Numbered from the stretch's first letter, positions 14,490 to 64,000 are shown. The stretch is DNA of 64,000 nt from a bacterium (GCA_037200965.1 JBBCGK010000001.1:256001-320000); one strand, 5' to 3'. Translations and numbers: made by a program. Notes: a model not told the origin generated them from the letters alone.

Positions 14490-14504
14490 GCAAGCCTATA
14501 AAAA

Positions 14505-45924: not shown

Positions 45925-46352
45925 ATGGGGAACAGTATACGCGAACGACAGGCTCGCGCGCCCAAAAGCGCGGCATAAACAGGGAAGTCGGAGCGGGGAA
46001 ATTGCGGGAGGGAAGTCGGACAAGGGGATTGCATTGTGTCTCGTTAGAAAGGCTATGTGCTGTCACATAGGGACTGCTGCTGCGTGCATCCAAAAAGGGT
46101 CTTGATCACCGCAGCCGAGCGATAGAGAGCCTATCCGGGACTATTTGACAGTATATGAAGATTGTATAGTTATCCACAGGTGCCGTTTACGAGATAAAAT
46201 CTAGATAAAATCTCGGTTAGGCAAGTTTTGTGTTTTGAGGTCATAAAATTATGACACGACTCCCCTGCTCCGCTGCTTCGTTTCAGCAAAATTATGTATC
46301 TCGTATCAAGAACTTATCGAGATCTGTATTCTTGAGTGTTTCAAATATACGG

Positions 46353-47030
46353 ATGCATTCGCGCTTTGAATACCTAAAGAACGAGGCGGTGAAGTTGCGC
46401 AAACGTGGAAAATCGTTGAGAGCCATCGAAGGCCTGCTTGACGTTCCTCGTTCGACACTCAGCGGGTGGCTTAAGAACGTTTCCCTGAGTGCGAAACATA
46501 AAGCGTCCCTCGAGAGGAAATGGAGGCTGGCGCTCACGATCGCAAGAACCGAAGCGGTCCGTTGGCACAATACCCAGAGAAACAAGAGACTGGAAGAAGC
46601 CGCTGAGGCAGCAGAAAAGACTCTTCAAAAGATAGGAGACGACTCAGAAATGCTTGAGCTCGCACTCGCTATGCTCTATCTCGGAGAAGGCGGAAAGACA
46701 AAGACGTCTCTTACTCTTGGAAACTCAGATCCGCTCATCGTGCGGTTTTATGTCAACGCGCTTGAGCGTTTATACGGAATCGCCAAAAGCAGGCTGCGGG
46801 CCGAGTTGCATTTGCGCGCGGATCAGGACGAAAACAAGTTAAAAAGATTCTGGTCGAAAGCGACCGGAATTCCCTTGAGACGTTTTGTATACAGCGTAAA
46901 GGATCAGCGCACTTTGGGCCGCGCGACCTATCCCGGGTATAAGGGCGTTTGTGCGGTATCCGGCGGGGGTGTGGCAATCCAGAGAAAATTAATGTATCTT
47001 GCTAAAGCATTTACAAAACGACATTCGTAA
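46353..47030 (+). CDS. HTH plus LAGLIDADG homing-endonuclease-like protein, paralog 1. The track ORF starts at 46251.
   Basis: HTH LRKRGKSLRAIEGLLDVPRSTLSGWL, LAGLIDADG-type motif LALAMLYLGEGGKT, then LGNSDPLIVRFYVNALERL. The stop lies 2 nt before tRNA-Val. Confidence 0.65.
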   Translation: MHSRFEYLKNEAVKLRKRGKSLRAIEGLLDVPRSTLSGWLKNVSLSAKHKASLERKWRLALTIARTEAVRWHNTQRNKRLEEAAEAAEKTLQKIGDDSEMLELALAMLYLGEGGKTKTSLTLGNSDPLIVRFYVNALERLYGIAKSRLRAELHLRADQDENKLKRFWSKATGIPLRRFVYSVKDQRTLGRATYPGYKGVCAVSGGGVAIQRKLMYLAKAFTKRHS

Positions 47031-47032
47031 AT

Positions 47033-47105
47033 GCGCGGTTAGCTCAATTGGTAGAGCACCTCGTTGACGTCGAGGGGGTAGTAGGTTCGAATCCTACACC
47101 GCGCA
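47033..47105 (+). tRNA. tRNA-Val (anticodon GAC)
   Basis: Acceptor gcgcggt/accgcgc, D-arm tagctcaattggtagagc, anticodon stem cctcg/cgagg with loop ttGACgt, T-arm gtaggttcgaatcctac. Confidence 0.8.
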
Positions 47106-47106
47106 C

Positions 47107-47964
47107 TTGATGCCTAAGACTATCGTTCTCTATCACGCCAACTGCCCCGACGGTTTCGGTGCCGCCTATTCGGCCTGGAAGAAGTTCGGTAACGAAGCGA
47201 TATACATTCCCGTGCGGCACGGCAAGCCCGTGCCGGAGCACCTTGCAGGCTCGGAACTCTATCTGCTCGATTTCACGTACGAGCGGCAGGAGATGGACGC
47301 GCTCAAGGCACTCGCCTCGCGCATCGTCGTACTCGACCACCATGAAGGGGTGCGCGATGTCGTCGAGAGCATACCCGAACATATCTTCGACTCGAAACGT
47401 TCGGGTGCGACGATCGCCTGGAGCTATTTCCACCCTGCCGAGCCCGTACCGGAGTTCCTCGAAATCGTCGCGAAGGCCGATCTCTATCTCCCGCTTGCAG
47501 ACGACGAGCGCGCGATCATCTCGTACGCGTACGCGCAGCCGTTCACGTTTAAGAACTGGGATTCGTTCGTCTCCCTCGTCGGGAATCCCGAAGAACGGGC
47601 GAAGCTTGTCGCCCGTGGTCTCGCCTATACCGAGCATTTCCAGCTCTTAGCGGCACAGATCGCGGAGCGCGCGGAACTCGTCTCGTTTGAAGGACACGAA
47701 GTGTATTTCGTCTCCGCTCCCCGGCTCTTCGCGACCGAGGTCGGCCATTTGCTGAATACGACACAGCCGCCGTTCGCTCTCATAGCTCGCGCGGAGCCTG
47801 ATGGAAGCCTGCGCGTCTCGATGCGCGCGGATACGACCGTCGACGTTTCGGCCATAGCCCGAAAATACGGCGGCAACGGGCATCCGGGCGCGGCCTCATT
47901 TTCAATCGACCGAAACGCTCCCCTTCCCTGGACGCCGATCAAGCATGAAGATTCTCGCGATTGA
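47107..47964 (+). CDS. nrnA: DHH-family phosphoesterase (NrnA-like oligoribonuclease / pAp phosphatase)
   Basis: HANCPDGFGAAY, DHH (VLDHHEG) and GGNGHPGAASF (GGGH) motifs. The ATG is at 47110, 4 nt after tRNA-Val. Confidence 0.75.
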   Translation: MMPKTIVLYHANCPDGFGAAYSAWKKFGNEAIYIPVRHGKPVPEHLAGSELYLLDFTYERQEMDALKALASRIVVLDHHEGVRDVVESIPEHIFDSKRSGATIAWSYFHPAEPVPEFLEIVAKADLYLPLADDERAIISYAYAQPFTFKNWDSFVSLVGNPEERAKLVARGLAYTEHFQLLAAQIAERAELVSFEGHEVYFVSAPRLFATEVGHLLNTTQPPFALIARAEPDGSLRVSMRADTTVDVSAIARKYGGNGHPGAASFSIDRNAPLPWTPIKHEDSRD

Positions 47965-49120
47965 AACAAGCTGCGACGAGACGGCGGTCTCGATACTTGA
48001 GTGCGAAGGAGATGAGCGGAGCGCGCGCTTCACGATTCTCGGAAACGCGCTCCTGTCGCAGATAGACCTGCATCAACAGTATGGCGGCGTCTTCCCCGCC
48101 CTTGCCAAGCGCGAGCATGCGAAGAATCTGGTACCGCTTCTCGAAGCCGCGCTCGAGGAAGCGGAACTCCTGCGCGAAGACGCTCAGGCAATGCCGCAGG
48201 ACGTTCACGACCGTATCGCGAAACTTCTCGAACGCGAGCCCGGGCTCTCGGAACTCTTTTTCGAATTCATACGGGAAGCGGAAACGCCCGGTATCGATGC
48301 TATCGCGGTCACGGCCGGTCCCGGACTCGAGCCAGCGCTATGGGTGGGAGTGAATTTCGCATCCGCGCTCGCGCTCGCGTGGGGCAAGCCCCTGATACCG
48401 GCAAATCACATGGAGGGACACGTGCTCTCCGCCCTGGCGGAAAGTAAAGATGAAAGGCTTCTGATCGAAGACGTATCGCTTCCGCTCCTCGCGCTCCTTA
48501 TCTCCGGCGGACATACCGAGCTCGTACTCATGAAAAGCTGGCTCGAATACGAGCTCATAGGACAAACGCGCGACGACGCGGTCGGCGAGGCGTTTGATAA
48601 GGCGGCGCGTATGCTCGGCCTCCCCTATCCCGGCGGCCCCGAAATTTCAAAGCTCGCCGACATAGCGCGCCGCGACTCTTCTCCGAATCCGTTCTCGCTT
48701 CCCCGTCCCATGCTCAAGGATCCGCATTGCGACTTTTCCTTCTCGGGCCTTAAGACTTCCGTGCTGTATCTCCTCAAAGGAATGCAGGAAGTTTCGGAAG
48801 TCGAGAAGCAGCAGATCGCACGCGAGTTCGAGGACGCGGTAGGCGAGGTACTGTGGGCAAAGACCGCGCGGGCGCTTGAAGAGACGGGAGCCAAGGTCTT
48901 GGTACTTGGCGGCGGAGTCTCGAATAACAAGCACATACGGAAGCTCTTCGCGGAAAAGATAACGGATGAATATCCGAATGTCTCGCTCCACCTCCCTACC
49001 GCGAGTCTCACAACCGACAATGCCGTCATGATCGGACTCGCGGGCTTCTATCGCTTCCTTCGCGGCGAGCGGGCGCTCCCCGGCGAACTCCGGGCGAACG
49101 GCAACCTCTCGCTTGTATAA
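47945..49120 (+). CDS. tsaD: tRNA N6-adenosine threonylcarbamoyltransferase
   Basis: MKILAIETSCDETAVSIL, and metal-binding H..GH (HMEGHV). Confidence 0.9.
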   Translation: MKILAIETSCDETAVSILECEGDERSARFTILGNALLSQIDLHQQYGGVFPALAKREHAKNLVPLLEAALEEAELLREDAQAMPQDVHDRIAKLLEREPGLSELFFEFIREAETPGIDAIAVTAGPGLEPALWVGVNFASALALAWGKPLIPANHMEGHVLSALAESKDERLLIEDVSLPLLALLISGGHTELVLMKSWLEYELIGQTRDDAVGEAFDKAARMLGLPYPGGPEISKLADIARRDSSPNPFSLPRPMLKDPHCDFSFSGLKTSVLYLLKGMQEVSEVEKQQIAREFEDAVGEVLWAKTARALEETGAKVLVLGGGVSNNKHIRKLFAEKITDEYPNVSLHLPTASLTTDNAVMIGLAGFYRFLRGERALPGELRANGNLSLV

Positions 49121-49156
49121 AAACCGTACCGCCTGGGTCGAGGCGGTACGGGAATC

Positions 49157-49324
49157 ATCGATTGTTGCGCACGGCGAGGAACCGATTGTCCGAATTCCAG
49201 TCGCCATCCCAGTTGTTCAGGTCGAGCTTCCAGTTGCCGTTGTCGTCGTTCCAGAGGATCGGGACGTTGCGATCATCGCCAACCTGGGCCGATATCGTGC
49301 GAAATACCGTCAGTACCACCATCC
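49157..49324 (-). pseudogene. Duplicated fragment of the C-terminal module of the downstream lipoprotein (a 55-aa ORF or remnant)
   Basis: The minus-strand translation MVVLTVFRTISAQVGDDRNVPILWNDDNGNWKLDLNNWDGDWNSDNRFLAVRNNR parallels the lipoprotein C-terminus ...GQSAQVGGDRYVPILWRGVGGRWGLGLRYWDGVWGSGNLFLAVRN. Nucleotide similarity 49160-49300 against 49640-49770. Confidence 0.5.
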
Positions 49325-49638
49325 ATTGAAAGCCTTAGCTGGTCTCTGGATTGAATCTTGTTTGGGATCTAAAATCCGCCAGTATTTTGCACCAACAGTC
49401 CTTTGATTTTGGACAAGCCCCGAGACGCGCTCCGGAAAACCATGGCCGTCCGGATTCCGGCCTAGCGAGGGTTGCGGACAGGTAGCCCGAAGCCGTGGCC
49501 GCAGGAAACTGTTCACCCGTCTTCTGCAGTATACAAAACAAAACTCGCGGACGCTTTCCAGGAAAGCAGTCCGCGAGGGTCCAAGGGCACGAGGAGTCAA
49601 AGCGCAGGGAATGCGCAAAGGATTCCAGGGCCCAAGGG

Positions 49639-50172
49639 TTAGTTGCGCACGGCGAGGAACAGATTGCCCGAACCCCAGACGCCATCCCAGTAGCGCAGGC
49701 CGAGCCCCCAGCGGCCGCCGACGCCGCGCCAGAGGATCGGGACGTAGCGATCACCGCCAACCTGGGCCGACTGGCCAAGACACACGGTCCAGTACGTGGG
49801 CGGACCGAGGTCGAAGTCCCGGCGATTCTTCGCGAGCGCCGCGCCGTAGGCGAGGCACTCTTCGAGATTTGCGGGCCGCAGGCTGTGGGCGCGCATCTCG
49901 TCGACCGCAGTCTTCGAGGAGATCGAACGGTTGAACGAGACGATCACCATGGTCTCGACGCGCTTCGTCTTCCCTTGGACCGGGAAGGCCGTTGCGGTAA
50001 TGGCGTCGTTGACCCAGTCGTAGTGCCCGGCCGCGATCATCTTCTCGTGGCTCTGGGTACTGTCGACGGTGATCTGGCGGTTTTCCGTCTTCCCCGACCC
50101 GCCGCCACACGCGCCGAGCGTGAACGCAAGCAACAATGCGGCGATCGCGCCGCTTATCGACCTATTGCGCAT
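49639..50172 (-). CDS. Lipoprotein, hypothetical
   Basis: Start at MRNRSISGAIAALLLAFTLGACGGG (lipobox LGAC). The track ORF extends to 50214. Confidence 0.55.
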   Translation of the reverse strand: MRNRSISGAIAALLLAFTLGACGGGSGKTENRQITVDSTQSHEKMIAAGHYDWVNDAITATAFPVQGKTKRVETMVIVSFNRSISSKTAVDEMRAHSLRPANLEECLAYGAALAKNRRDFDLGPPTYWTVCLGQSAQVGGDRYVPILWRGVGGRWGLGLRYWDGVWGSGNLFLAVRN

Positions 50173-50316
50173 GAATATGGCCCTCCTTTCAGTTAGCCAT
50201 GGATGGTGCGGCACCGTGCCGCGACATCTGTGTAAAATATATACATATTTGGTTAGTTGTCAAGTCTACCGGCCCGGATTCCCAAAACAAGCTTATATTT
50301 GCTATAGTTTTCGGTA

Positions 50317-52497
50317 ATGGACGAGAAATTCAGGAAACCATACAGCCCGGCCGATACCGAAACCCGCATCTATAAAAGATGGGAGGAAAGCGGGTATTTC
50401 AATCCTGATAACCTGCCCGGCAACCGCACGGAAGACTTCACCATCGTGCTCCCTCCCCCGAATGTCACGGGCGTCCTCCATATCGGCCATGCGTACGAGG
50501 ATTCCCTTCAGGATGCCGCCATCAGGTATGAGCGGATGCGCGGAAAGAAAGCGCTCTGGCTCCCGGGCACGGACTCGGCCGCGATAGCGACGCAGGCGAG
50601 GGTCGAAAAGAACATCCAGAAGGACGAGGGCAAGAGCCGCCACGATATCGGGCGCGAAGAACTCGTACGAAGAGTGAAGGAGTTTGCCAAGGCGAGCGAG
50701 GGAACCATCCTCTCGCAGGTACGGCGCATGGGAGCCTCTCTGGACTGGTCGCGCTACGCATACACGCTCGACGATGCCCGCACGAATGCAGTCACGACCG
50801 CCTTCGTCCGCATGTACGAGGCGGGCCTCATCTATCGCGGCAACCGCATCGTCAACTGGGATCCGAAGGGCCAGACCACCATTTCCGACGATGAGATCGT
50901 CCACGAGGAGCGCAAAGCGAAACTCTATACCTTCCGCTACGGCAAGGACTTCCCTATCCCGGTCGCGACGACCCGACTCGAGACGAAAGTCGGCGATGTC
51001 GCGGTCGCCGTGCATCCGGACGACGCGAGATACAAGAAATTCGTCGGGAAGGAATACGATGCGGTCTTCTGCGACGTGCCGGTGCATATCAAGGTGGTTG
51101 CGGACACAGCGGTAGAGCCGGAATTCGGGACCGGGGCGCTCGGGGTCACCCCCGCGCACAGCATGATCGACTGGGAAATCGCCGAGCGGCACGGACTTCC
51201 GAAGGACAGAATTGTGATAAACGAATACGCAAAGATGGCGGTCGAAGGACGGCTGAAGGGACTCAAGGTTGCCGACGCGCGCGAGACGGTCGCCGAGTGG
51301 CTCCGAAACGAAGGGCTCATGGAAAAGGAGGAAGATATCGTGCAGAACGTCGCGACTGCCGAGCGCACCGGCGGCATCATCGAGCCCCTGCCGAAGCTGC
51401 AGTGGTTCATGGCGGTCGACAAAGAGTTCGCGATTCCCCATTCGGAAATCCCGGGCATCGCCTCAGGGAGCGCGACGACCCTCAAGAAACTCATGCGCGC
51501 GGCGGTCGAGAGCGGCGGGGTCTCCATGCCGCAGGAGAACTTCCGGAAGGTGTACTTCCACTGGATCGACAACCTCCATGACTGGTGCATCAGCCGGCAG
51601 ATTTGGTTCGGCCACCGCATCCCCATCTGGTACAAGGACGGCGGGACGTATTGCGGCATTTCGGCCCCGGAAGGCGCGGGCTGGGAACAGGACCCGGACG
51701 TACTCGATACGTGGTTCTCGTCCGCCCTGTGGACCTTCTCGACGCTTGGCTGGCCGCAAGAAACGAGCGACTTGCGCACGTTCCATCCGACCGCCTTCAT
51801 GTCGCCGGCCTATGAAATACTCTCGCTCTGGGTTTCGAGAATGATACTCATGAGCGCCTTCCATTTGGGACAGGTACCGTTTCGTACCGTCCTTATACAT
51901 GGCCTCGTGCGCGACAAGCAGGGCCGCAAGTTCAGCAAGTCGCTTGCGAACGGCATAGACCCCCTCGACCTTATCGAGAAATACGGCGCGGACGCGCTTC
52001 GCATGGGACTTCTGGTCGGCACCGCGATTGGGGGCGACATCCGCTTCGACGAAGACAAGGTGAAGGGATACAAGCATTTCGCGAACAAGCTCTGGAACAT
52101 CGCGCGGTTCATTCTCGAAAACACCGGGAAGCTCGGGGATGTCTCGGCTGCAACTTTCTCGAAGGAAGACGAGGCGCTCCTCGCCGAATGCGGCGAGCTT
52201 GCGAAGGACGTGACGAAAGACCTCGACGAATACCGCTTCTATCTCGCCGCCGAGAAGCTCTACCACTACGCCTGGCACCGCCTCGCCGACGAAATACTCG
52301 AGCAGTCGAAACCGCTCCTGAATGGAGATGACGAAGCCGCCCGCAAGAGCCGCGCCCGGCTTCTTCTTGCGCTCCTTGACCGGATACTCCGGCTTCTCCA
52401 TCCGTTCATGCCGTTCGTCACCGAAGAAATCTGGTTCTCGCTCCCGAAAAGCCCGGATAGGGAGGAAATGCTGATGATCGCATCGTGGCCCTCCTGA
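50317..52497 (+). CDS. valS: Valyl-tRNA synthetase, compact form lacking the C-terminal coiled-coil
   Basis: HIGH motif PNVTGVLHIGHA, the editing domain, and KMSKS as KFSKSL. Confidence 0.9.
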   Translation: MDEKFRKPYSPADTETRIYKRWEESGYFNPDNLPGNRTEDFTIVLPPPNVTGVLHIGHAYEDSLQDAAIRYERMRGKKALWLPGTDSAAIATQARVEKNIQKDEGKSRHDIGREELVRRVKEFAKASEGTILSQVRRMGASLDWSRYAYTLDDARTNAVTTAFVRMYEAGLIYRGNRIVNWDPKGQTTISDDEIVHEERKAKLYTFRYGKDFPIPVATTRLETKVGDVAVAVHPDDARYKKFVGKEYDAVFCDVPVHIKVVADTAVEPEFGTGALGVTPAHSMIDWEIAERHGLPKDRIVINEYAKMAVEGRLKGLKVADARETVAEWLRNEGLMEKEEDIVQNVATAERTGGIIEPLPKLQWFMAVDKEFAIPHSEIPGIASGSATTLKKLMRAAVESGGVSMPQENFRKVYFHWIDNLHDWCISRQIWFGHRIPIWYKDGGTYCGISAPEGAGWEQDPDVLDTWFSSALWTFSTLGWPQETSDLRTFHPTAFMSPAYEILSLWVSRMILMSAFHLGQVPFRTVLIHGLVRDKQGRKFSKSLANGIDPLDLIEKYGADALRMGLLVGTAIGGDIRFDEDKVKGYKHFANKLWNIARFILENTGKLGDVSAATFSKEDEALLAECGELAKDVTKDLDEYRFYLAAEKLYHYAWHRLADEILEQSKPLLNGDDEAARKSRARLLLALLDRILRLLHPFMPFVTEEIWFSLPKSPDREEMLMIASWPS

Positions 52498-52516
52498 CAT
52501 GCGTTAGAATGGGTAC

Positions 52517-53224
52517 ATGACGGCTGAAGCCTTCGGCTATGCGTTCCTTGGAGGCGTCCTCCCCGCCCTCCTCTGGCTTTATTTCCTCCTCCGGGAAGAT
52601 TCCCGCTGCCCGGAGCCCAAGCTCATGATTCTGGTCGCTTTCTTCGCGGGCATGATCGCCGTGCCGCTCGTGCTTCCCCTGGAGCGCTTCGCATCCCTTC
52701 ATCTTGATCCGGGGCTTCCCGTGGTCGTGGCATGGGCTGCGATCGAGGAGGTCATAAAATACCTTGCCGCGGCCGTGGCGGTTTTATGGCGGTGGCGGAC
52801 CGTGAACGAATCCCCCGATCTCGTGATCTACATGCTGACCGCCGCACTCGGCTTCGCGGCGCTTGAAAACGCGCTCTTCCTCGTCGCCCCGATAGCGTCC
52901 GGACACTTCGTCGACAGCCTCATCACCGGGAACTTGCGTTTCGTGGGATCGACGATACTTCACGTCATCGCCTCGTCCTCGATCGGTTTCGCGCTCGCCT
53001 TCTCGTACAAGTCGAGCCGGGCGGTGCGCATGCTCGCCTCGACCGCCGGACTTATCCTCGCGATCACGTTGCACACCCTCTTCAATGTACTTATAATCGC
53101 CAAAGAGGTTTCCCACGTCCTCGCCGCGTTCTTCACCGTGTGGAGCGCCGCGGTCGTCTTTTTCGCCCTCTTCGAGATACTGAAATACCTGCGGTATCGC
53201 AATTTACCAAGAAACTCCTGCTAA
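52517..53224 (+). CDS. PrsW-family intramembrane metalloprotease
   Basis: IEEVIKY (EExxK), FAALENALF (FxxxE) and HVIASSSIGFA (Hxxx..G) motifs in a multi-TM protein. Confidence 0.6.
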   Translation: MTAEAFGYAFLGGVLPALLWLYFLLREDSRCPEPKLMILVAFFAGMIAVPLVLPLERFASLHLDPGLPVVVAWAAIEEVIKYLAAAVAVLWRWRTVNESPDLVIYMLTAALGFAALENALFLVAPIASGHFVDSLITGNLRFVGSTILHVIASSSIGFALAFSYKSSRAVRMLASTAGLILAITLHTLFNVLIIAKEVSHVLAAFFTVWSAAVVFFALFEILKYLRYRNLPRNSC

Positions 53225-53230
53225 CCACCT

Positions 53231-53731
53231 ATGATCACCAAGAAACGCTCCTTCTTCGAACGCCTTTCCGGTTCCGTCTCGGCCGGAAGCGACTTCGACT
53301 CTTTCGACGATGAGCTCCCGCAGGGAGAAACGGCGCGACCCGCGACCCGCGAGATCGGTGCCGCGCGCGGCGCGATCTATCAGACCGAAGAAGAGCCGGC
53401 GGAAGGCCAGCTTCCCGTCGACGTATACCAGACGCCGAGCGAAATCATGCTCCGGGCGTTCGTCGCCGGGGTCCGCGCCGAGGACCTCAACGTTTCCATA
53501 AGCCGCGACATGGTCGTGATCGAGGGCGCGCGCTCCGCGCGCGAGCAGATTTCTGACTCGGACTATTTCAATCAGGAGCTCTTCTGGGGATCGTTCGCAC
53601 GCAAGGTCCTGCTCCCGCAGGAAGTCGACGTGGACGGCTCTTCGGCAAGCGCGAAGGATGGACTTTTGACTATCACCCTTCCCAAGCTCGACAAGGCCCG
53701 CCAGACGAAACTCAAGGTTAAGTCTTCCTAG
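53231..53731 (+). CDS. Hsp20/alpha-crystallin-family small heat-shock protein
   Basis: The alpha-crystallin domain ends in GLLTITLPK. Confidence 0.75.
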   Translation: MITKKRSFFERLSGSVSAGSDFDSFDDELPQGETARPATREIGAARGAIYQTEEEPAEGQLPVDVYQTPSEIMLRAFVAGVRAEDLNVSISRDMVVIEGARSAREQISDSDYFNQELFWGSFARKVLLPQEVDVDGSSASAKDGLLTITLPKLDKARQTKLKVKSS

Positions 53732-53746
53732 AAAAGCAGCCCGGTA

Positions 53747-54826
53747 TCAAAGCGCCTCCGCCCGAAGCGGAGGCGCTTTGCTTACCGTTTCGACCTTGAA
53801 GCGTATCCGCCCGATCACCCGCCCGTCAGCCGTCTCGACTCCCACCCGCCAGCTTCCCGGAGCGAGATCGCTCTTGGCCGAATACCCGCGGTATCCGCCG
53901 TCGCGCCCGCCAAGGATCGGAAAGGAAATGCGGCTTTCCGTGATCCACTTCTCTTCCCGCTCATCGTAATGCTCCCAGCGGTGGACGATCGTAGTCGAGA
54001 GCTTCACGGGAGCGAAGACGGCGCTAAAGGCATACAGCGTTTCACCGGGAAGCATGTGCTCGACCGGAGCGAAGCCAAGCGATTCCCGCCAGGTCCGCGG
54101 CTCCGCTTCGCCCGCGTATCCTGCGGGGCCGCGGGAGACGGAGTGATAGGTTCCCGCGCTCTGGAGCGCGAGCGGGAGCGGCGGCAGGATATTCGTGAAA
54201 TAAAAGAGGTTGACGACCGCGAGTATCGCGAGCGCGCCTCCCCGGATTCGCCAGCGTTCGGCTAGGAAGCGCGTGCGGCCGATAAGGCGGAGGAGGATAA
54301 GAAATAGCGCGAAGAGCACGGCCGCGATGAGCCCCGAAAGCAGGAATGTCGAAGTTCCCATCAAGCCCGTGAATACCGGAACGGCGAGGATGGCGTAGGA
54401 ATAGAGGCCGAAGAACAGGAGGAGCGTCGTAAAGACGAGACGGTCGTGGTATTTGCCGAACACTTCGTTCCCGAGGAAAATCAACGCCAACAGAAAAAGG
54501 AATGGCCAAGATGCGGAAAGATCCGCGCTTCTCGCATAAAAGATAAGGAACCCGCTCCACATGCCGCCGAGCGCGAACTGGGTCAGAAGCGGCAGGACGA
54601 AACGGAAGCGCGGGAGCGGCCTTCCACCCCCGGCCCTCGTCTCGAAGAAATGCAGAAGCGCGATCGAGGCGGCGGCGAGCGCGATATAGCCTACGAACAG
54701 AGCCTGCGTCTGCGGCAGGTCGATGCGGCTGAAGAACACGTTGTCGGCGACGAAGCCCGCGACCATCGCCGCGGCGGACAGATGCCGCTCGTACTTCTGT
54801 ATCCAAGCGAAGAGCGGACGGAACAT
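53747..54826 (-). CDS. Multi-pass membrane protein, hypothetical, with a soluble C-terminal domain
   Basis: About eight TM helices. The start at 54826 lies 1-2 nt from the tRNA-Phe 3' end, so an internal start is possible. A bidirectional terminator hairpin lies at 53741-53778. Confidence 0.5.
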   Translation of the reverse strand: MFRPLFAWIQKYERHLSAAAMVAGFVADNVFFSRIDLPQTQALFVGYIALAAASIALLHFFETRAGGGRPLPRFRFVLPLLTQFALGGMWSGFLIFYARSADLSASWPFLFLLALIFLGNEVFGKYHDRLVFTTLLLFFGLYSYAILAVPVFTGLMGTSTFLLSGLIAAVLFALFLILLRLIGRTRFLAERWRIRGGALAILAVVNLFYFTNILPPLPLALQSAGTYHSVSRGPAGYAGEAEPRTWRESLGFAPVEHMLPGETLYAFSAVFAPVKLSTTIVHRWEHYDEREEKWITESRISFPILGGRDGGYRGYSAKSDLAPGSWRVGVETADGRVIGRIRFKVETVSKAPPLRAEAL

Positions 54827-54827
54827 G

Positions 54828-54899
54828 TGCCTGGGACAGGACTTGAACCTGCAACCCCTTCCGCTTCAAGGAAATGCTCTACCATTGAGCTACCCAGGC
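54828..54899 (-). tRNA. tRNA-Phe (anticodon GAA)
   Basis: The reverse complement gives gcctggg..tagctcaatggtagagc..stem ttcc/ggaa with loop tTGAAGc..T-arm caggttcaagtcctg..cccaggc+a. Confidence 0.75.
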
Positions 54900-54920
54900 A
54901 ATACGGGGCATAATACCAGA

Positions 54921-55616
54921 TTAATATCCTTCTTTCACGCCCTCAATCATACCCATCAAATAGTGGAACTTTGGAGTATCATTGACCTGAATCTGAAGGG
55001 TCCCCCACGGCAAACGGTTGTATGGGCGGATTCCCTTGCTGGCACCGGTAATTAGGTAGCTGCTTTTGAAAAAACGTTCCTTGGGAAGTCTTGTAATGCT
55101 GGCCCAATAACGGAGCGCTTCGGCCTCATTGATGTGCGGGTAGAGACGCATAACGAGACGTATCTTCTCAACAGGAATTTCCATAACTTCCCGTAAAAAA
55201 CGCAGGAATACCCGTATCATCTCCGGATCTGAATTAACGAAACTGATAGTGTGGCACATGCGCGCCTTGCCATCCACCACCTTAAGTCTTTTGTACCCTT
55301 CCGCCCAATAAAGAAGAGCGCCAGCAAATAGCAGGTTTGCCTTGGAAAACTTCGGGACAACCGTTCTTCCTTCCCGCGCGGCATTGCGCGCTCGACGTTC
55401 CGCGTGAACGGTTTGCATCTTGTTTCTTTTTAAGAACGCGTCCGTCACTCCAAGACGGACTCGGGCCTTAAGGCGTGCGTTCGCTTTGTCTGAAAGTACT
55501 AAGTCGCGAAGCCATAGTGACAGCGTCGATTTCGCTACCGGAACTTCCTTCCGAATTTCGTTGTAACTCTTGCCCGCTATCCGCAGTCTGACCGCCCGGT
55601 CTCGAAACGGGTTCAT
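54921..55616 (-). CDS. HTH plus LAGLIDADG homing-endonuclease-like protein, paralog 2
   Basis: HTH LRIAGKSYNEIRKEVPVAKSTLSLWL, LLFAGALLYWAEGYK, then FVNSDPEMIRVFLRFLREV. The stop lies 21 nt upstream of the tRNA-Phe 5' end on the same strand. Confidence 0.65.
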   Translation of the reverse strand: MNPFRDRAVRLRIAGKSYNEIRKEVPVAKSTLSLWLRDLVLSDKANARLKARVRLGVTDAFLKRNKMQTVHAERRARNAAREGRTVVPKFSKANLLFAGALLYWAEGYKRLKVVDGKARMCHTISFVNSDPEMIRVFLRFLREVMEIPVEKIRLVMRLYPHINEAEALRYWASITRLPKERFFKSSYLITGASKGIRPYNRLPWGTLQIQVNDTPKFHYLMGMIEGVKEGY

Positions 55617-55697
55617 CGATCCTATTTTACTCTAGCCGGTTCGATTATCGCACACTATCTTTGTGGATAGAAAACTGATCTTCTATCCACTTAAACC

Positions 55698-56159
55698 CTA
55701 CGGCACCGCGACGCAGACGCCCGTTTCGGCGTTGCAGAATACCCCGCCGCAGTTCTGGCACTCCATCTTATACACCGAATATTTCCCGGAACCGATGAGC
55801 GCGAGACCGAAGGATGCGGCCGCAAGAAGAAGCTCGAACTCGATGCCCGAGAATCCGTGCGCCGCGCCGACGAGCGCGGCCGCGACTATCATTTCAATCC
55901 CGAAGAGGACGCCGAAGGCGCGCGTCGCGATACCGAGAATAAGCGCGAGACCGCCGATCACCTCAAGCCAGCCGATGAAGTACGCGACCCAGGGCCAGAA
56001 CCCGAGCGTGCCGAAGAAAACGGCAACCTGCGAGATGTTCTCCACTTTGTCCCAGCCATGGACGAGGAAGATGAGGCCGACCACGAGCCGTATGAGGAGA
56101 AGGCCGAAAGACCGCTTATAAAAGAACCTGCCCGCGCCATTGAGGGTGTCGATAAGCAT
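55698..56159 (-). CDS. DoxX-family membrane protein
   Basis: LLIRLVVGLIFLVHGWDKV... four-TM DoxX pattern. Confidence 0.65.
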   Translation of the reverse strand: MLIDTLNGAGRFFYKRSFGLLLIRLVVGLIFLVHGWDKVENISQVAVFFGTLGFWPWVAYFIGWLEVIGGLALILGIATRAFGVLFGIEMIVAAALVGAAHGFSGIEFELLLAAASFGLALIGSGKYSVYKMECQNCGGVFCNAETGVCVAVP

Positions 56160-56209
56160 GCCGTGAAGCTATGAGGATAATGCCGGAAATTATAGCACTG
56201 GTTTTTGAG

Positions 56210-56282
56210 TGTCCCCACCCGGAATCGAACCAGGATCGGAGGCTTAGGAAGCCCCTGTTCTATCCAATTGAACTATGGGGAC
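56210..56282 (-). tRNA. tRNA-Arg (anticodon CCT)
   Basis: The reverse complement gives gtcccca..tagttcaattggatagaac..stem ggggc/gcctc with loop ttCCTaa..T-arm cctggttcgattccggg..tggggac+a. Confidence 0.75.
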
Positions 56283-56288
56283 GCAAGA

Positions 56289-56921
56289 TTATACTAGCCG
56301 TTTACCTGATTCTGCGCCAATAAGACCTATGGCACTTTGCACGAATAAGCGTTCCTGTATCCCCGACGACACCCGAACTCGGCACATTCCGTACGGCAAT
56401 TTCCCTTTCTTTTTCCCTTTGATTATTTCAATCCTGGTAATCTTTGCGATCGGCAACCCGGTAACTCGAGCCCAGAATATCTTCGCTCTTTGAACAGGGA
56501 TATCATCATGAAGCCGGAGAGAAAGCGAGAGTCTTGCTGATGCAATGTTAAGCGTACGAAGACAGCGGAGGAAAGTACATATAAGAGATGGATCTGAATT
56601 TATCAATGAAAAGTCCTTTTTCGTACCTTCACCCCAATAAATGCCAATAAGGAGAAACAAGAGATCTCTATTTGAAAGCCTCCCCAAAGCTGACGACGAG
56701 CGCTCCAGGATACTTTCGCGTCGAGCTTGGGAGCGCTCTCGTGAACCTCCTTGTTTCCCCCTAAGCAGCGCCTGAAATTCGGGAAGGACTGAAACATGCT
56801 GAACGTAGCGCAGCACGGTTGTTTTGGAGGTTCCTGTTTCTTTAGAAATTTCCGGAATACTTTTGCCTTTTTTTCGTAAATGTACAACTCGGTTACGCTG
56901 TTGCTCGGATATTTTTCTCAT
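56289..56921 (-). CDS. HTH plus LAGLIDADG homing-endonuclease-like protein, paralog 3
   Basis: HTH LRKKGKSIPEISKETGTSKTTVLRYV, LLFLLIGIYWGEGTK, then LINSDPSLICTFLRCLRTL. The stop lies 6 nt upstream of the tRNA-Arg 5' end. Confidence 0.65.
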   Translation of the reverse strand: MRKISEQQRNRVVHLRKKGKSIPEISKETGTSKTTVLRYVQHVSVLPEFQALLRGKQGGSRERSQARRESILERSSSALGRLSNRDLLFLLIGIYWGEGTKKDFSLINSDPSLICTFLRCLRTLNIASARLSLSLRLHDDIPVQRAKIFWARVTGLPIAKITRIEIIKGKKKGKLPYGMCRVRVSSGIQERLFVQSAIGLIGAESGKRLV

Positions 56922-57024
56922 ATACTTAAATATACCTGACTACCTATTAGTATAGAGATGCTTTATCCACTTTCTGGAAGCAAAGATCCGGCCTTGGAAT
57001 GGGTGTTTTTGCTCACCGCGCCCT

Positions 57025-61414: not shown

Positions 61415-63217
61415 TTATCGGTCGCTTCCCTGCACCATTTTCATGAACACCTCTTCCGGAATATTTACCTTCCCCGTACCGTGCTCCTTGAGCTTCTTCT
61501 TTCCCTTCTTCTGCTTCTGAAGAAGCTTGTTCTTGCGCGATACGTCGCCGCCATAGAGCCCTGCCGTCACGTCCTTCCTCATCGCCGAGAGCGAGCGCGA
61601 AGCGATGATGCGTCCGAGTGCCCGCGCCTGAATTTTCGCGACGAACTGTTGTTTGGGAAGTATGTCGTGGAGCTTTTCGACCATCTTCTCCCCTTCCTCC
61701 TGTACCCGCCTCCTTGAAATCACGCGCGCGAACGCAGGCACCGGCTCCTCCGCGACGAGGATGTCGAGCCGTACGACATCCGCCGGACGCTCGTCGAGGA
61801 ATTCATACGAGAGCGACGCATACCCCGACGATACGCTCTTTACCCGGTCGAAAAAGCCGCGCATGAGTTCCCGAAGCGGCATCTCGGCCGTCATCTCGAT
61901 GCGCCCGTCGTCATAGCCGATGGTACCGGTCGTGTTCGCCTCATGCTCGTGAAAAAGCTGCACCAATGCGCTCACCGCATCCGGCGGCATAAGCACTATC
62001 ACCTTCACCCACGGCTCTTCGATGAGCTCGATATCCCCGAAGTCGGGAAAGCGCGAAGGAGTATACACGACTTCCCTGCCCTTGCGGGTCGTGACCGCGT
62101 ACGCGATGGTCGGGATGGTGACGATAAGGGCGAGCGAGAACTCGCGCTTCAAACGTTCGGAAATGATCTCGAGGTGGAGCATGCCGAGGAATCCGCACCG
62201 GAAACCCCGGCCGAGCACTCCGGACGACTCCTCCTCAAACGAAAGCGAGGAATCGGTGAGCCGGAGGCGCTCGAGCGCCTGGCGAAGCAAGGGAAGGTCA
62301 TCCTGACTCTCGGGGTATACCGAGGCCCAGACGACCGGCCGGGGCCGCTCGAAGCCTCCCAGGGCCGGGAGAAGGCCTCTTGGAACCCCTATCGTATCTC
62401 CCACCGCCACCACCCCCGGCTCCTTGACCCCGGTGATCACATACCCGATCTCGCCGGGGCCGAGCATCTCGGCAGGAGTTTCGTCGGGCGCGAAGATGCC
62501 GACTTCAAGCGCGGTGAAGGTATTCCCCGCTGCATGGAATAGAAGCGGCTGTCCTTTCTTCAGGGTTCCGTCGAAGACGCGCAGATAGACGGTGACGCCG
62601 CGATGCGTCGAATATGAAAAGTCGAAGATGGTCGCGCGCGGTTCGTCCGCGACCGCGGCGCGCGGCGGAGGCACCCGGTCGACGACCGCCCCGAGAAGCT
62701 CGTCAACCCCCTCGCCGCTTTTGCCGGAGACCGCGAGTACCGTGTCCGGAGAAACCGCAAGGAGTTTCGCGAGCTCCTGCTTCACTTCCGGCACGCGCGC
62801 GTACGGTGAATCGATCTTCGAGACGACCGGTATGATCGTACAGCCCGCGTTCTTCGCCATCGCGAGCGTTGTCAGAGTTTGCGCCTGGACACCCTGCGTC
62901 GAGTCGACGAGGAGGAGAACGCCTTCGACCGCGGAGAGCGCCCGCGACACTTCGTATGAGAAGTCGATATGCCCCGGCGTGTCGATGAGGTTCAAAACAT
63001 AACTCGTTCCGTTCTTTTCGTACTTCATCCGCACCGGCTGCATCTTGATCGTGATGCCGCGCTCGCGCTCGAGGTCCATGCGGTCGAGCACCTGGTCCCG
63101 CATCTTGCGCGTCTCTATGGTGTGGGTGGCCTCAAGAAGCCGGTCGGCAAGCGTCGACTTACCGTGGTCCACGTGTGCCACGATGCTGAAGTTCCTCAGA
63201 TTATATAATTGTGCCAT
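61415..63217 (-). CDS. lepA: Elongation factor 4 (LepA)
   Basis: NFSIVAHVDHGKSTLADRL, DTPGHIDF, and the LepA-specific C-terminal domain. Confidence 0.9.
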   Translation of the reverse strand: MAQLYNLRNFSIVAHVDHGKSTLADRLLEATHTIETRKMRDQVLDRMDLERERGITIKMQPVRMKYEKNGTSYVLNLIDTPGHIDFSYEVSRALSAVEGVLLLVDSTQGVQAQTLTTLAMAKNAGCTIIPVVSKIDSPYARVPEVKQELAKLLAVSPDTVLAVSGKSGEGVDELLGAVVDRVPPPRAAVADEPRATIFDFSYSTHRGVTVYLRVFDGTLKKGQPLLFHAAGNTFTALEVGIFAPDETPAEMLGPGEIGYVITGVKEPGVVAVGDTIGVPRGLLPALGGFERPRPVVWASVYPESQDDLPLLRQALERLRLTDSSLSFEEESSGVLGRGFRCGFLGMLHLEIISERLKREFSLALIVTIPTIAYAVTTRKGREVVYTPSRFPDFGDIELIEEPWVKVIVLMPPDAVSALVQLFHEHEANTTGTIGYDDGRIEMTAEMPLRELMRGFFDRVKSVSSGYASLSYEFLDERPADVVRLDILVAEEPVPAFARVISRRRVQEEGEKMVEKLHDILPKQQFVAKIQARALGRIIASRSLSAMRKDVTAGLYGGDVSRKNKLLQKQKKGKKKLKEHGTGKVNIPEEVFMKMVQGSDR

Positions 63218-64000
63218 TGCGCCTTCGCTGTTGAATATTGCTTAATACCTTATTCGCGTCGGAAACCCTCTTTTGGTGCGTCAGAAAAGGCTTAAGCAAA
63301 AAGATGAGCACCTCAAGTGAGCTTGATTCGTTGACCGAGACTCTCCATACGTTCTGTTTCCATATCCATCCGTAATCATTGTCGCCCTTTCGCGCGATAA
63401 TACGGGACTTGCTGCGAATACCAGAGCGAAGAAATAACTTGTGGATATCGGCAAGAATTGCTTGATCGTAGGCGTCAATCTTGAACCTTCCCTTTCCTTG
63501 ATTCAAGCCAAACGTGCCCTCCGCGTCAATATAGCCAGCCGCGAAAGCCCATAGTAGCGTTTCGTTCGAAGAAAGCCAGCGGCGCATTCCGGGCGGATAC
63601 TTTCCGAGCAGAAATGTAAAGGATCGATTGAGATAACAGTTCAGGTGGGCGCTTCGGGAATTACGAGAAATAGTAACAGTACCGTACTGGCAAAACAGCT
63701 CCTTAAAAAGTCTCTCCTGCGCTAGATGGGTGGTGTGACAACGAACAACAACTGTTTCTGACACACCCGGTGGGACATACGCGTTCAAATCTCCATATTT
63801 GAAACCGAGCAGATATGCTTTATCAATGTCTGATCCGCTAAAGTCCTTCCTTGGATACTTAGTTTGCGCAGCGCTCTTACTTTTTAGAGAAATGTCTGCT
63901 TCAATAAGGCGATTTCTGATCGTTATTGAGGTGCAACCGTATTTTTGTGCAATTTTCGCCGGACTCCATTTCCTATGAAGATATAGTTTCTCTAAATCGG
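63201..64000 (-). CDS. HTH plus double-LAGLIDADG homing-endonuclease-like protein, paralog 4. The N-terminus lies beyond the window end. It overlaps the lepA start region by 17 nt.
   Basis: Upstream of the track start, the same frame continues to the window edge: ...WSPAKIAQKYGCTSITIRNRLIEADISL (HTH) ...KAYLLGFKYGDL (motif 1) ... LLWAFAAGYIDAEGTF (motif 2). Confidence 0.55.
   Translation of the reverse strand, partial: DLEKLYLHRKWSPAKIAQKYGCTSITIRNRLIEADISLKSKSAAQTKYPRKDFSGSDIDKAYLLGFKYGDLNAYVPPGVSETVVVRCHTTHLAQERLFKELFCQYGTVTISRNSRSAHLNCYLNRSFTFLLGKYPPGMRRWLSSNETLLWAFAAGYIDAEGTFGLNQGKGRFKIDAYDQAILADIHKLFLRSGIRSKSRIIARKGDNDYGWIWKQNVWRVSVNESSSLEVLIFLLKPFLTHQKRVSDANKVLSNIQQRRRNGTII

What the first reader, a model, noticed from the sequence alone, without database searches (positions are those of the whole stretch)
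46251..56921. Paralogous HTH-LAGLIDADG endonuclease-like genes sit immediately 5' of tRNA genes (three of four copies)
Four paralogs share the same architecture: an N-terminal HTH, a LAGLIDADG-type motif (YLGEGGK / YWAEGYK / YWGEGTK / YIDAEGTF) and a conserved NSDPxxIxxFLxxL block. They lie at 46353-47030 (+), 54921-55616 (-), 56289-56921 (-) and 63201->64000 (-). Three end 2, 21 and 6 nt upstream of a same-strand tRNA gene (Val-GAC, Phe-GAA and Arg-CCT respectively). These tRNAs are in turn packed only 1-4 nt from the start codon of the next gene (nrnA after tRNA-Val, a membrane protein after tRNA-Phe). The fourth paralog overlaps the start of lepA. A free-standing homing-endonuclease gene inserted at the 5' flank of tRNA genes, probably co-transcribed with them, is unlike the usual intron- or intein-encoded context. 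It suggests either intronless homing that targets conserved tRNA loci or domestication of the genes (for example for tRNA precursor processing or regulation).
Basis: partly seen in the sequence, partly recalled or inferred. Interest (0 to 1): 0.85.

Follow-up and report, generated by a model that had tools for sequence, protein, structure and literature searches.

The report
Endonuclease-like gene cassettes docked at tRNA genes
Three related genes in this ultra-small (Patescibacteria) bacterial genome belong to a very large, undescribed family of self-contained gene cassettes, probably homing endonucleases, that sit right against particular tRNA genes, are present in some related genomes and cleanly absent from others, and are the only places where intron-split tRNA genes were found.

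Summary
p1, p2 and p3 are true paralogs. They end 2, 21 and 6 nt before tRNA-Val(GAC), tRNA-Phe(GAA) and tRNA-Arg(CCT). In 160 related loci, 97% of family members lie within 100 nt of a tRNA, against 19% of control ORFs, and each clade keeps its own tRNA. The fourth gene is not a paralog. It is a bona fide LAGLIDADG_3 gene whose relatives always sit 5' of lepA.

Related syntenic genomes carry clean empty sites for all three genes. One pair shows a precise 684-nt insert 13 nt upstream of tRNA-Arg, with no terminal or target-site repeats. The genes are AT-richer than host genes in every genome tested, carry their own promoter, and overlap the tRNA promoter. Glu106 and Lys109 are invariant in 166 members. 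LAGLIDADG ancestry is supported by motif-level alignments to I-DmoI and an intein endonuclease. Fold searches are only moderately supportive, and Pfam does not recognise the domain.

Many members flank tRNA genes split by ORF-less group I introns. All 59 intron-tRNAs found were next to a family gene.

Best reading: free-standing homing-endonuclease cassettes specific for tRNA loci, possibly mobilising tRNA introns. This is a new variant of a known kind. Cleavage is untested.

The parts
46353..47030 (+). p1: HTH + LAGLIDADG-like gene of the tRNA-Val(GAC) clade
   Evidence: ORF. Family HMM E 6.6e-51. Orthologs in L016, L043 and L048 also lie directly 5' of tRNA-Val(GAC), and L065 has a decayed remnant there. 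GC3 is 0.55 against 0.69-0.80 for host genes.
46170..46178 (+). perfect DnaA-box-like 9-mer TTATCCACA upstream of p1
   Evidence: YTATCCAC occurs 7 times in the window against 1.9 expected, and 4 of the 7 are upstream of p1, p2 and p3. Sequence.
47033..47106 (+). tRNA-Val(GAC), partner of p1; the next gene starts at 47107/47110
   Evidence: ARAGORN; ORF list.
54921..55616 (-). p2: HTH + LAGLIDADG-like gene of the tRNA-Phe(GAA) clade
   Evidence: 259 homologs; 100% match to a Patescibacteria MAG protein. AF2 model pLDDT 85. Orthologs lie 5' of tRNA-Phe in 55 loci. GC3 is 0.55.
55663..55690 (-). palindrome GTGGATAGAA-N8-TTCTATCCAC (two DnaA-box-like half sites) at the left end of the p2 cassette
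   Evidence: A related TTWTNCACA motif lies at -55..-48 in 31 of 163 family upstream regions, against 0.7% expected.
55624..55629 (-). -10-like TAAAAT 7 nt before the p2 ATG (leaderless-type promoter)
   Evidence: Sequence. The same architecture (TATAAT-like hexamer 6-8 nt before the ATG) is seen across orthologs.
54910..54918 (-). extended -10 (TGgTATTAT) for tRNA-Phe, next to the p2 stop codon and 10 nt before the tRNA
   Evidence: Promoter scan. TGnTAnnnT is conserved at this position in p2-clade orthologs.
54827..54899 (-). tRNA-Phe(GAA), partner of p2, intron-less here; the ATG of the next gene is at 54826
   Evidence: In 52 related loci the same tRNA carries a group I intron at 33/34.
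56289..56921 (-). p3: HTH + LAGLIDADG-like gene of the tRNA-Arg(CCT) clade
   Evidence: HTH_7, E 5.4e-7. About 35 metagenome orthologs lie -27..+95 nt 5' of tRNA-Arg(CCT). GC3 is 0.41. AF2 model pLDDT 83.
56963..56970 (-). DnaA-box-like GTGGATAA upstream of p3
   Evidence: (T)GTGGATAA is conserved at -47/-48 in p3-clade orthologs.
56929..56934 (-). -10-like TATATT 7 nt before the p3 ATG
56288..56293 (-). TATAAT -10 for tRNA-Arg, containing the p3 stop codon
   Evidence: In orthologs, TTGGAA (inside the C-terminal codons)-N17/18-TAnnAT lies 8 nt before the tRNA.
56209..56282 (-). tRNA-Arg(CCT), partner of p3
   Evidence: The identical tRNA sequence occurs in empty and occupied alleles.
63201..64000 (-). 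p4: unrelated bona fide LAGLIDADG_3 gene (276 aa, cut by the window end), overlapping the lepA start
   Evidence: Pfam E 4.6e-7. P0271 is named 'LAGLIDADG family homing endonuclease' by NCBI. No profile similarity to p1-p3 beyond the HTH. Homologs are always 5' of lepA.

Best explanation
p1, p2 and p3 are members of a very large Patescibacteria family of free-standing, ORF-only cassettes about 680-760 nt long. Each cassette carries its own promoter and encodes a probable single-motif, homodimeric LAGLIDADG-type homing endonuclease fused to an N-terminal Tc3/resolvase-like HTH. Each clade is tied to one tRNA gene.

Shown here:
- The cassette is a discrete insert between the end of the upstream gene and about 13 nt before the tRNA's first base. 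It has no inverted or target-site repeats.
- It is present or absent independently at each tRNA locus among syntenic relatives.
- It is compositionally foreign.
- Its 3' end overlaps, and partly supplies, the tRNA promoter.
- The putative catalytic Glu and Lys are invariant.

Inferred:
- The protein recognises the empty allele, using the conserved tRNA 5' region as an anchor and the junction as the cleavage site.
- It cuts there and is copied in by recombinational repair (intron-less homing).
- Insertion splits the site, which would explain why occupied alleles need no protective changes in the tRNA.
- Embedding the tRNA promoter makes deletion costly.
For: Association:
- 85% of members have a same-strand 3' tRNA and 97% have any tRNA within 100 nt, against 5% and 19% for controls.
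- Clades map to tRNA identity: Val-GAC, Arg-CCT, Phe-GAA, Lys-CTT, Gly-TCC, Met-CAT, Cys-GCA and others.

Linkage rather than co-transcription:
- In one large clade the gene is always within about 200 nt of an intron-bearing tRNA-Phe, whether upstream, downstream or divergent.
- The Val-TAC and Leu/Met clades are divergent.

Empty sites:
- p3 is absent at Grx-tRNA-Arg in 15 of 17 syntenic loci.
- p2 is absent 5' of tRNA-Phe in 10 loci.
- p1 is absent in 7 loci.

Precise indels:
- L004 against L095 and L091 shows a 684-nt insert 13 nt 5' of tRNA-Arg, with no TIR or TSD.
- L092 against L013, L012, L005 and L010 shows a roughly 755-nt p2 insert.

Other signs of a selfish element:
- Decayed copies exist in L016, L071 and L065.
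- GC3 is 0.41-0.55 against 0.69-0.80 for host genes, and is lower than host genes in 26 of 26 genomes.

Active-site-like conservation: Y103, E106, G107, K109 and W171 are invariant in 166 of 166 members.

LAGLIDADG link:
- I-DmoI at E 0.019-0.057, in register with E117.
- GyrA intein endonuclease block '[20 protein letters not shown]'.

Intron link:
- All 59 intron-tRNAs in 1.47 Mb are next to a family ORF.
- For tRNA-Phe the counts are 52 intron / 28 no intron when linked, and 0 / 10 when unlinked.

Analogy and precedents:
- In the same genomes a bona fide LAGLIDADG_3 gene behaves the same way at lepA.
- Free-standing HEGs, collaborative homing, T4 SegB in a tRNA cluster, and host promoters embedded in HEGs are all described (PMC3984707; PMC2988022).
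Against: - No cleavage activity or target site is shown.
- p2 divergence tracks that of syntenic housekeeping genes: 54-63% against ValRS 51-68% and TsaD 62-70%. This looks like long vertical inheritance under purifying selection, not the rapid gain-decay-loss cycle typical of HEGs. Only 3 decayed copies were seen among about 170.
- GC3 of p2 correlates with host GC3 (r 0.75), so any transfer is not from a single foreign pool.
- A homodimeric enzyme would want a palindromic site, and none is evident at the junction.
- p2-clade genomes carry the gene next to an intron-less tRNA-Phe with an ordinary anticodon loop. The intron insertion site therefore cannot be the only target.
- No relatives were found in viral contigs.
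Confidence: 0.6

Rival explanations
1. Domesticated DNA-binding proteins. The family derives from an endonuclease but now serves the host as tRNA-locus-specific regulators or promoter donors. It would bind the tRNA gene or its own operator and tune expression of that tRNA, perhaps coupled to DnaA and replication.
For: - Divergence matches housekeeping neighbours inside a conserved syntenic block.
- Core residues are under very strong purifying selection.
- The ORF 3' end supplies the -35/-10 of the tRNA promoter.
- A DnaA-box-like or palindromic operator is conserved at the gene's own promoter.
Against: - Each gene is absent from many syntenic relatives whose tRNA is identical in sequence.
- Codon composition is foreign in 26 of 26 genomes.
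- The acidic and lysine residues needed for catalysis, which WhiA has lost, are invariant.
- There is no reason why only some isoacceptors, and different ones in different genomes, would need a private regulator.
Confidence: 0.2
2. RNA-level helper. The protein acts on the adjacent tRNA precursor, as a group I intron maturase or a processing cofactor, as some LAGLIDADG proteins do.
For: - All 59 intron-containing tRNAs found lie next to a family gene.
- LAGLIDADG maturases are an established class (general knowledge; the possibility that an HEase assumes a maturase function is mentioned in PMC3984707).
Against: - Most partners are intron-less: 166 of 225 tRNAs within 210 nt of a family ORF carry no intron. 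That count includes neighbouring tRNAs in clusters.
- The window's three partner tRNAs are all intron-less.
- Patescibacteria tRNA introns self-splice in vitro (PMC13011429).
- The N-terminal domain is a DNA-type HTH of the Tc3/resolvase kind.
Confidence: 0.1
3. A transposase- or recombinase-like element that targets tRNA promoters as safe havens, using a catalytic domain unrelated to LAGLIDADG.
For: - The HTH resembles those of Tc1/IS630, IS3 and resolvase.
- Insertion just upstream of tRNA genes recalls Ty3 and the Dictyostelium TRE elements (general knowledge).
- Fold evidence for LAGLIDADG is not decisive.
Against: - There are no terminal inverted repeats or target-site duplications at a base-precise junction.
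- No DDE, serine- or tyrosine-recombinase domain is found in Pfam or NCBIfam.
- Clade-to-tRNA fidelity argues for one fixed site per lineage rather than transposition.
- The motif block aligns with I-DmoI and with an intein endonuclease.
Confidence: 0.05

Closest known systems
Free-standing homing endonucleases of T4-like phages, especially SegB (GIY-YIG) in the T4 tRNA gene cluster
   Same: - An ORF-only selfish gene sits between conserved genes or tRNAs and is sporadic among relatives.
- It has its own promoter.
- Host promoters embedded in the endonuclease gene favour its retention (PMC2988022). Here the tRNA -35/-10 overlaps the ORF end.
   Different: - Cellular (Patescibacteria) chromosomes rather than phage; no viral relatives were found.
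- LAGLIDADG-like rather than GIY-YIG or HNH.
- A huge family: 3,546 clusters at 50% identity with E<=1e-10.
- One fixed tRNA partner per clade.
- Long vertical persistence.
Collaborative (trans) homing: F-CphI next to the ORF-less psbA intron of cyanophage S-PM2; T4 mobE and the nrdB intron
   Same: [quoted passage not shown] Here the family gene lies within about 200 nt of intron-split tRNA-Phe, tRNA-Met or tRNA-Leu.
   Different: - The host gene is a tRNA in a bacterial chromosome.
- Cleavage at the intron insertion site is not shown.
- The same family also flanks intron-less tRNAs, including all three in this window.
LAGLIDADG homing endonucleases: I-DmoI, I-CreI, and the intein-type LAGLIDADG_3 domain
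   Same: - The block YW[AG]EG.K ... NSDP..I..F aligns with I-DmoI YVAEGDK...WNKNKALLEIV and with the GyrA intein GLLVSEGT...[12 protein letters not shown].
- The acidic residue is invariant.
   Different: - No Pfam hit.
- Not encoded in an intron or intein.
- Extra N-terminal HTH and a long helical linker.
- The models show an extra helix between the third and fourth strands.
- Fold matches are weak.
WhiA (degenerate LAGLIDADG + HTH transcription factor)
   Different: - WhiA has two LAGLIDADG domains that lack the catalytic acids, a C-terminal HTH, and is a universally conserved host gene (general knowledge).
- Here there is a single motif with an invariant Glu and Lys, an N-terminal HTH, and a sporadic distribution.
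LAGLIDADG endonucleases in rRNA introns and group I introns in tRNA genes of Patescibacteria
   Same: - Same phylum.
- The tRNA-Phe(GAA) intron at 33/34 matches the published table (PMC13011429).
   Different: That paper reports that most tRNA introns lack endonuclease genes and infers limited mobility. It looked inside introns with Pfam. The genes described here lie outside the intron and escape Pfam.

Membership tests
LAGLIDADG homing endonuclease | LAGLIDADG helix ending in a conserved acidic residue followed by Gly | tested here: met
   L-Y-W-[AG]-E-G-x-K, with Y, E, G and K invariant in 166 of 166 members. It aligns in register with I-DmoI YVAEGDK and with the GyrA intein LLVSEGT.
LAGLIDADG homing endonuclease | Significant match to curated LAGLIDADG models (Pfam LAGLIDADG_1/_2/_3) | tested here: not met
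   p1-p3 and 24 homologs hit only HTH models at E<=1. p4 does hit LAGLIDADG_3.
LAGLIDADG homing endonuclease | alpha-beta-beta-alpha-beta-beta-alpha core fold | tested here: inconclusive
LAGLIDADG homing endonuclease | Profile-level homology to an undoubted LAGLIDADG family | tested here: inconclusive
   Profile A4 against PDB sequences: I-DmoI at E 0.019-0.057. hhalign against I-DmoI: probability 26%. hhalign against the p4 family: negative.
LAGLIDADG homing endonuclease | Site-specific double-strand cleavage with 4-nt 3' overhangs | not testable with these tools
   Needs biochemistry.
Free-standing (intron-less) homing endonuclease gene | Presence/absence polymorphism at the same site in related genomes | tested here: met
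   p3 is empty in 15 of 17 syntenic loci, p2 in 10 loci and p1 in 7 loci.
Free-standing (intron-less) homing endonuclease gene | Discrete insert without terminal repeats or target-site duplication | tested here: met
   A 684-nt insert with identical break points in L095 and L091 relative to L004. No TIR in the window copies.
Free-standing (intron-less) homing endonuclease gene | The enzyme cleaves the empty allele near the insertion point; the occupied allele is immune | not testable with these tools
   Indirect only. The tRNA sequence is identical in empty and occupied alleles, so any immunity must come from disruption of the junction.
Free-standing (intron-less) homing endonuclease gene | Horizontal spread (phylogeny incongruent with the host) | tested here: inconclusive
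   GC3 is foreign in 26 of 26 genomes, but identity tracks the syntenic host genes. No proper reconciliation was possible.
Collaborative homing system | ORF-less group I intron in the gene next to a free-standing HEG | tested here: met
   Rfam RF00028 hits, and ARAGORN intron-tRNAs within 204 nt or less of family ORFs, 59 of 59. This does not apply to the window copies, whose tRNAs are intron-less.
Collaborative homing system | The endonuclease target coincides with the intron insertion site | not testable with these tools
   Against it as the only target: HEG-bearing, intron-less tRNA-Phe genes have the ordinary CUGAAGA loop.
WhiA-type domesticated LAGLIDADG regulator | Loss of the catalytic acidic residues, and universal conservation as a host gene | tested here: not met
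   Glu and Lys are invariant. The distribution is sporadic.
IS/transposon transposase | Terminal inverted repeats, target-site duplication, and a DDE or recombinase catalytic domain | tested here: not met
   (no TIR or TSD). (only weak HTH-region matches to transposase models, far below their cut-offs).

The most novel reading that the evidence does not exclude
The tRNA-flanking genes are active endonucleases that home to the promoter/5' boundary of specific tRNA genes. They are also the missing mobility engine for the ORF-less group I introns of Patescibacteria tRNA genes, by collaborative homing. Expression may be gated by a DnaA-box-like operator. That would make them a chromosomal, tRNA-directed gene-drive system that is widespread in one of the largest bacterial phyla.
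Probability: 0.3. Interest if true: 0.85.

Novelty: new variant of a known kind. Interest (0 to 1): 0.74.

Why it matters
Patescibacteria have tiny genomes yet are unusually rich in introns. A recent survey concluded that their tRNA introns mostly lack endonuclease genes and are therefore hardly mobile (PMC13011429). This finding points to a very large family of about 3,500 clusters at 50% identity, annotated almost entirely as hypothetical proteins. It sits just outside those tRNAs, escapes Pfam, and behaves like a site-specific selfish cassette.

If the proteins cut DNA, several things follow:
- They would explain how tRNA introns spread.
- They would add a new target class, the tRNA gene 5' boundary, to homing biology.
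- They would provide dozens of natural enzymes with different long recognition sites.
- They would show selfish genes wiring themselves into essential tRNA promoters in minimal genomes.

The family also matters for annotation. Intron-split tRNA-Phe genes are missed by default tRNA finders.

Tried and rejected
- Four-paralog model: rejected. hhalign of the p1-p3 family (A2, A4) against the p4 family (A3) finds only the HTH.
- Chance adjacency: rejected by control ORFs and by independent clades.
- 'Target switching' from tRNA-Phe to tRNA-Gly or tRNA-Pro, suggested by the first tree: rejected. Those members still have the intron-bearing tRNA-Phe on their other side.
- Members 'without a tRNA': resolved as intron-split tRNA-Phe missed by default ARAGORN.
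- Upstream GTGGATA motif as a relic of a tRNA 5' half: rejected. There is no D-stem or acceptor context, and many copies match the 9-mer DnaA-box consensus.
- Immunity by substitutions in the tRNA: rejected. Empty and occupied alleles carry identical tRNA-Arg, and there is no systematic anticodon-loop difference in tRNA-Phe.
- Transposon features: no TIR or TSD.
- Phage origin: no relatives in viral contigs.
- Nucleotide-level empty/occupied comparison for p1: the flanks are not alignable.
- Technical dead ends:
  - The mixed alignment A5 was too diverse for a collection scan.
  - The afdb50 fold library was unavailable.
  - Foldseek against PDB was uninformative.
  - The second model (p3) did not sharpen the fold assignment.

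Full report
**What is in the window**

The window comes from a Patescibacteria (Paceibacteria-like) MAG. p2 is 100% identical to 'MAG: hypothetical protein WDN10_01935 [bacterium]' on a 960-kb contig.

- p1 46353-47030(+) ends 2 nt before tRNA-Val(GAC) 47033-47106.
- p2 54921-55616(-) ends 21 nt before tRNA-Phe(GAA) 54827-54899.
- p3 56289-56921(-) ends 6 nt before tRNA-Arg(CCT) 56209-56282.

The three proteins are 28-31% identical. They share an N-terminal HTH, a YW[AG]EG.K block and an NSDP block.

The fourth gene (63201 to the window end) is different:
- It is 14% identical to p1.
- It is the only one to hit Pfam LAGLIDADG_3.
- It belongs to a 276-aa family that NCBI names 'LAGLIDADG family homing endonuclease'.
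- Profile-profile comparison with the p1-p3 family finds only the HTH.

**The tRNA association generalises**

A scan of one genome per species found 477 stretches encoding p2 relatives, and I fetched 80 loci. A metagenome scan with p3 gave 80 more.

An HMM of the family, run with ARAGORN, first showed a tRNA within 60 nt downstream for 51 of 92 members. The rest shared a conserved sequence of about 300 nt right after the stop. That sequence is a group I intron (Rfam RF00028). It splits a tRNA-Phe(GAA) at position 33/34, the same site published for one Patescibacteria genome (PMC13011429).

With introns allowed, the counts for 142 evaluable members are:
- 85% have a same-strand tRNA within -30..+100 nt of the stop.
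- 97% have a tRNA within 100 nt of either end.
- For 786 control ORFs in the same loci the figures are 5% and 19%.

The recurrent -10 overlap arises when an ORF reads into the tRNA and stops at the U8-A9-G10 TAG.

Deep clades of the family tree follow tRNA identity:
- Same strand: Val-GAC (p1), Arg-CCT (p3; about 35 loci), Phe-GAA (p2), Lys-CTT, Gly-TCC, Met-CAT, Cys-GCA.
- Divergent orientation: Val-TAC and intron-bearing Leu/Met.

The family is very large. It has 6,298 clusters at 50% identity with E<=1e-3 and 3,546 with E<=1e-10. None were found in viral contigs.

**Linkage, not co-transcription**

In the large clade that at first seemed to have 'switched' to tRNA-Gly(GCC) or tRNA-Pro, every member still has an intron-bearing tRNA-Phe immediately on its other side. 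That tRNA lies on the same strand upstream or is divergent. The invariant is therefore tight linkage to one tRNA gene, in any orientation.

The genes have their own promoter. A -10 hexamer lies 6-8 nt before the ATG, which implies leaderless mRNAs:
- p2: TAAAAT at 55624-55629.
- p3: TATATT at 56929-56934.
- The same layout recurs in orthologs.

The tRNAs have their own -10 element overlapping the ORF end:
- TGgTATTAT at 54910-54918 for tRNA-Phe.
- TATAAT at 56288-56293 for tRNA-Arg, containing the p3 stop codon.
- In p3 orthologs the -35 (TTGGAA) lies inside the last codons.

**Empty sites and exact boundaries**

The neighbourhood LepA-FtsB-Grx-[p3-tRNA-Arg]-p2-tRNA-Phe-membrane protein-Hsp20-membrane protein-ValRS-TsaD-NrnA is conserved. 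Within it:
- p3 is missing between Grx and tRNA-Arg in 15 of 17 genome loci.
- p2 is missing 5' of tRNA-Phe in 10 metagenome loci that do have p3.
- p1 is missing 5' of tRNA-Val(GAC) in 7 loci.

L004 (empty) aligns at the DNA level with L095 and L091 (occupied) on both sides of one point, 13 nt upstream of tRNA-Arg. The occupied alleles carry exactly 684 extra nt there:
- The insert is the gene's promoter plus the ORF minus its last four codons.
- It begins right after the Grx terminator hairpin.
- It has no inverted ends and no duplication.

L092 against L013, L012, L005 and L010 shows an equivalent insert of about 755 nt for p2. The window copies have no flanking repeats. The tRNA-Arg sequence can be identical in empty and occupied alleles.

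**Selfish or host gene?**

For a selfish cassette:
- The three loci are occupied independently of one another.
- Frameshifted copies exist in L016 and L071, and L065 has an HTH-only remnant 5' of tRNA-Val.
- Composition is foreign. GC3 is 0.55, 0.55, 0.41 (and 0.47 for p4) against 0.69-0.80 for neighbouring host genes.
- p2 orthologs have lower GC3 than syntenic host genes in 26 of 26 genomes, by 0.14 on average.

For a host role:
- p2 identity to the window copy (54-63%) equals that of ValRS, TsaD and Hsp20 in the same genomes.
- GC3 correlates with host GC3 (r 0.75).
- Decay is rare.

Both readings need function to be maintained, and it is. Y103, E106, G107, K109 and W171 are invariant in 166 members that are otherwise only about 25-30% identical between clades.

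**Is it a LAGLIDADG enzyme?**

Against, or neutral:
- Pfam and NCBIfam see only the HTH.
- AF2 models are confident (pLDDT 85 and 83).
- Foldseek is uninformative.

Sequence evidence is more specific:
- A 100-sequence profile hits I-DmoI at E 0.019-0.057 over the motif region.
- The only other ORF in the window that the profile touches is the intein endonuclease inside GyrA, a genuine LAGLIDADG_3. The match is '[21 protein letters not shown]' against 'LYWgEGt..sfsNsDpemiklf'.

I rate LAGLIDADG ancestry as likely, at about 0.75, but not proven. The HTH is of the Tc3/resolvase type.

**The intron connection**

In 1.47 Mb of fetched DNA, ARAGORN finds 59 intron-containing tRNAs. All lie within 204 nt of a family ORF, and none of the 295 unlinked tRNAs has an intron. 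For tRNA-Phe alone the counts are 52 with intron and 28 without when linked, against 0 and 10 when unlinked.

These loci were chosen through the family gene and are phylogenetically related, so the result is suggestive and not a clean test. The layout matches collaborative homing as described for phages (PMC3984707). It bears on the published conclusion that Patescibacteria tRNA introns mostly lack endonuclease genes (PMC13011429).

It cannot be the whole story. The window's three tRNAs and the whole near-p2 clade are intron-less, with normal anticodon loops.

**The fourth gene as an internal control**

p4's relatives (43-64% identical) sit immediately 5' of lepA, from an overlap to 91 nt away, in L004 and in three unrelated contigs. 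They are absent 5' of lepA in L001, L007, L012 and L016. A certified LAGLIDADG gene thus shows the same life-style in the same genomes. This supports reading the tRNA-linked family in the same way.

**Unexplained**

A DnaA-box-like 9-mer (TTWTNCACA) lies at -55..-48 from the ATG in 31 of 163 family upstream regions, against 0.7% expected. In the window it is perfect before p1 (46170-46178), forms a palindrome before p2 (55663-55690), and is an 8/9 match before p3. It sits at the left edge of the cassette. It could be a DnaA site or an autoregulatory operator for the HTH. I could not tell which.

**Literature**

Four full-text searches found no description of endonuclease-like genes flanking tRNA genes in this phylum. 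The closest precedents are phage free-standing endonucleases, notably SegB in the T4 tRNA cluster, and promoter embedding in such genes (PMC2988022).

**Verdict**

The best explanation is a new family of tRNA-locus-specific, free-standing LAGLIDADG-like homing-endonuclease cassettes (confidence 0.6). A domesticated regulator is the main rival (0.2). Catalysis and target are untested.

Noticed in passing
window 10683-14495 (-): GyrA carries an intein with a LAGLIDADG_3 endonuclease domain (Pfam DNA_topoisoIV E 1.6e-146, Intein_splicing E 4.4e-10, LAGLIDADG_3 E 4.4e-17). With p4, the window holds two certified LAGLIDADG genes besides the three tRNA-linked ones.
   Followed up: partly
window 63201-64000 (-); L004 5359-6150; L161-L164: The p4 family (LAGLIDADG_3, 276 aa, two motifs with invariant Asp and Glu) always lies immediately 5' of lepA and is absent there in several syntenic relatives. 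It looks like a lepA-linked free-standing homing endonuclease.
   Followed up: partly
window 46170-46178, 55663-55690, 56963-56970; upstream regions of family genes in L001-L160: A DnaA-box-like motif (TTWTNCACA) lies about 50 nt before the start codon of family genes, roughly 28-fold enriched. Before p2 it forms a palindrome. It could be a DnaA site or an autorepressor operator; this is unresolved.
   Followed up: partly
window 54824-54827 and 47106-47112; L002, L005, L010, L012, L013: Start codons of the next genes abut the tRNA 3' ends by 0-3 nt, and this is conserved in relatives. Family genes have -10 hexamers 6-8 nt before the ATG. Together these suggest leaderless mRNAs and tRNA-punctuated transcripts.
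   Followed up: partly
L015, L017, L022-L024, L027-L031 and others (52 loci): tRNA-Phe(GAA) is interrupted by a 203-404-nt group I intron at 33/34. It is invisible to ARAGORN's default mode, so tRNA-Phe would be reported missing from these genomes.
   Followed up: yes
window 57334-60900: A block containing a peptidase-like gene, a 547-aa secreted protein and a GrpB-like gene (some with lower GC3, 0.56-0.73) separates Grx from FtsB/tRNA-Gly(CCC). In many relatives tRNA-Gly(CCC), Grx and p3 are contiguous. This may be an inserted island.
   Followed up: no
proteins P0148, P0152, P0182, P0197, P0213: Some library members are 400-576 aa long with 2-4 matched stretches of the family profile. They may be tandem fusions or mis-called adjacent copies.
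   Followed up: no
L049 (7461-8183, 9968-10675, 13426-14283); L048; L077 (9175-9852, 9986-10681): Single genomes carry up to three family members within 7-14 kb, each at a different tRNA. In L077 two copies are separated only by tRNA-Phe.
   Followed up: partly
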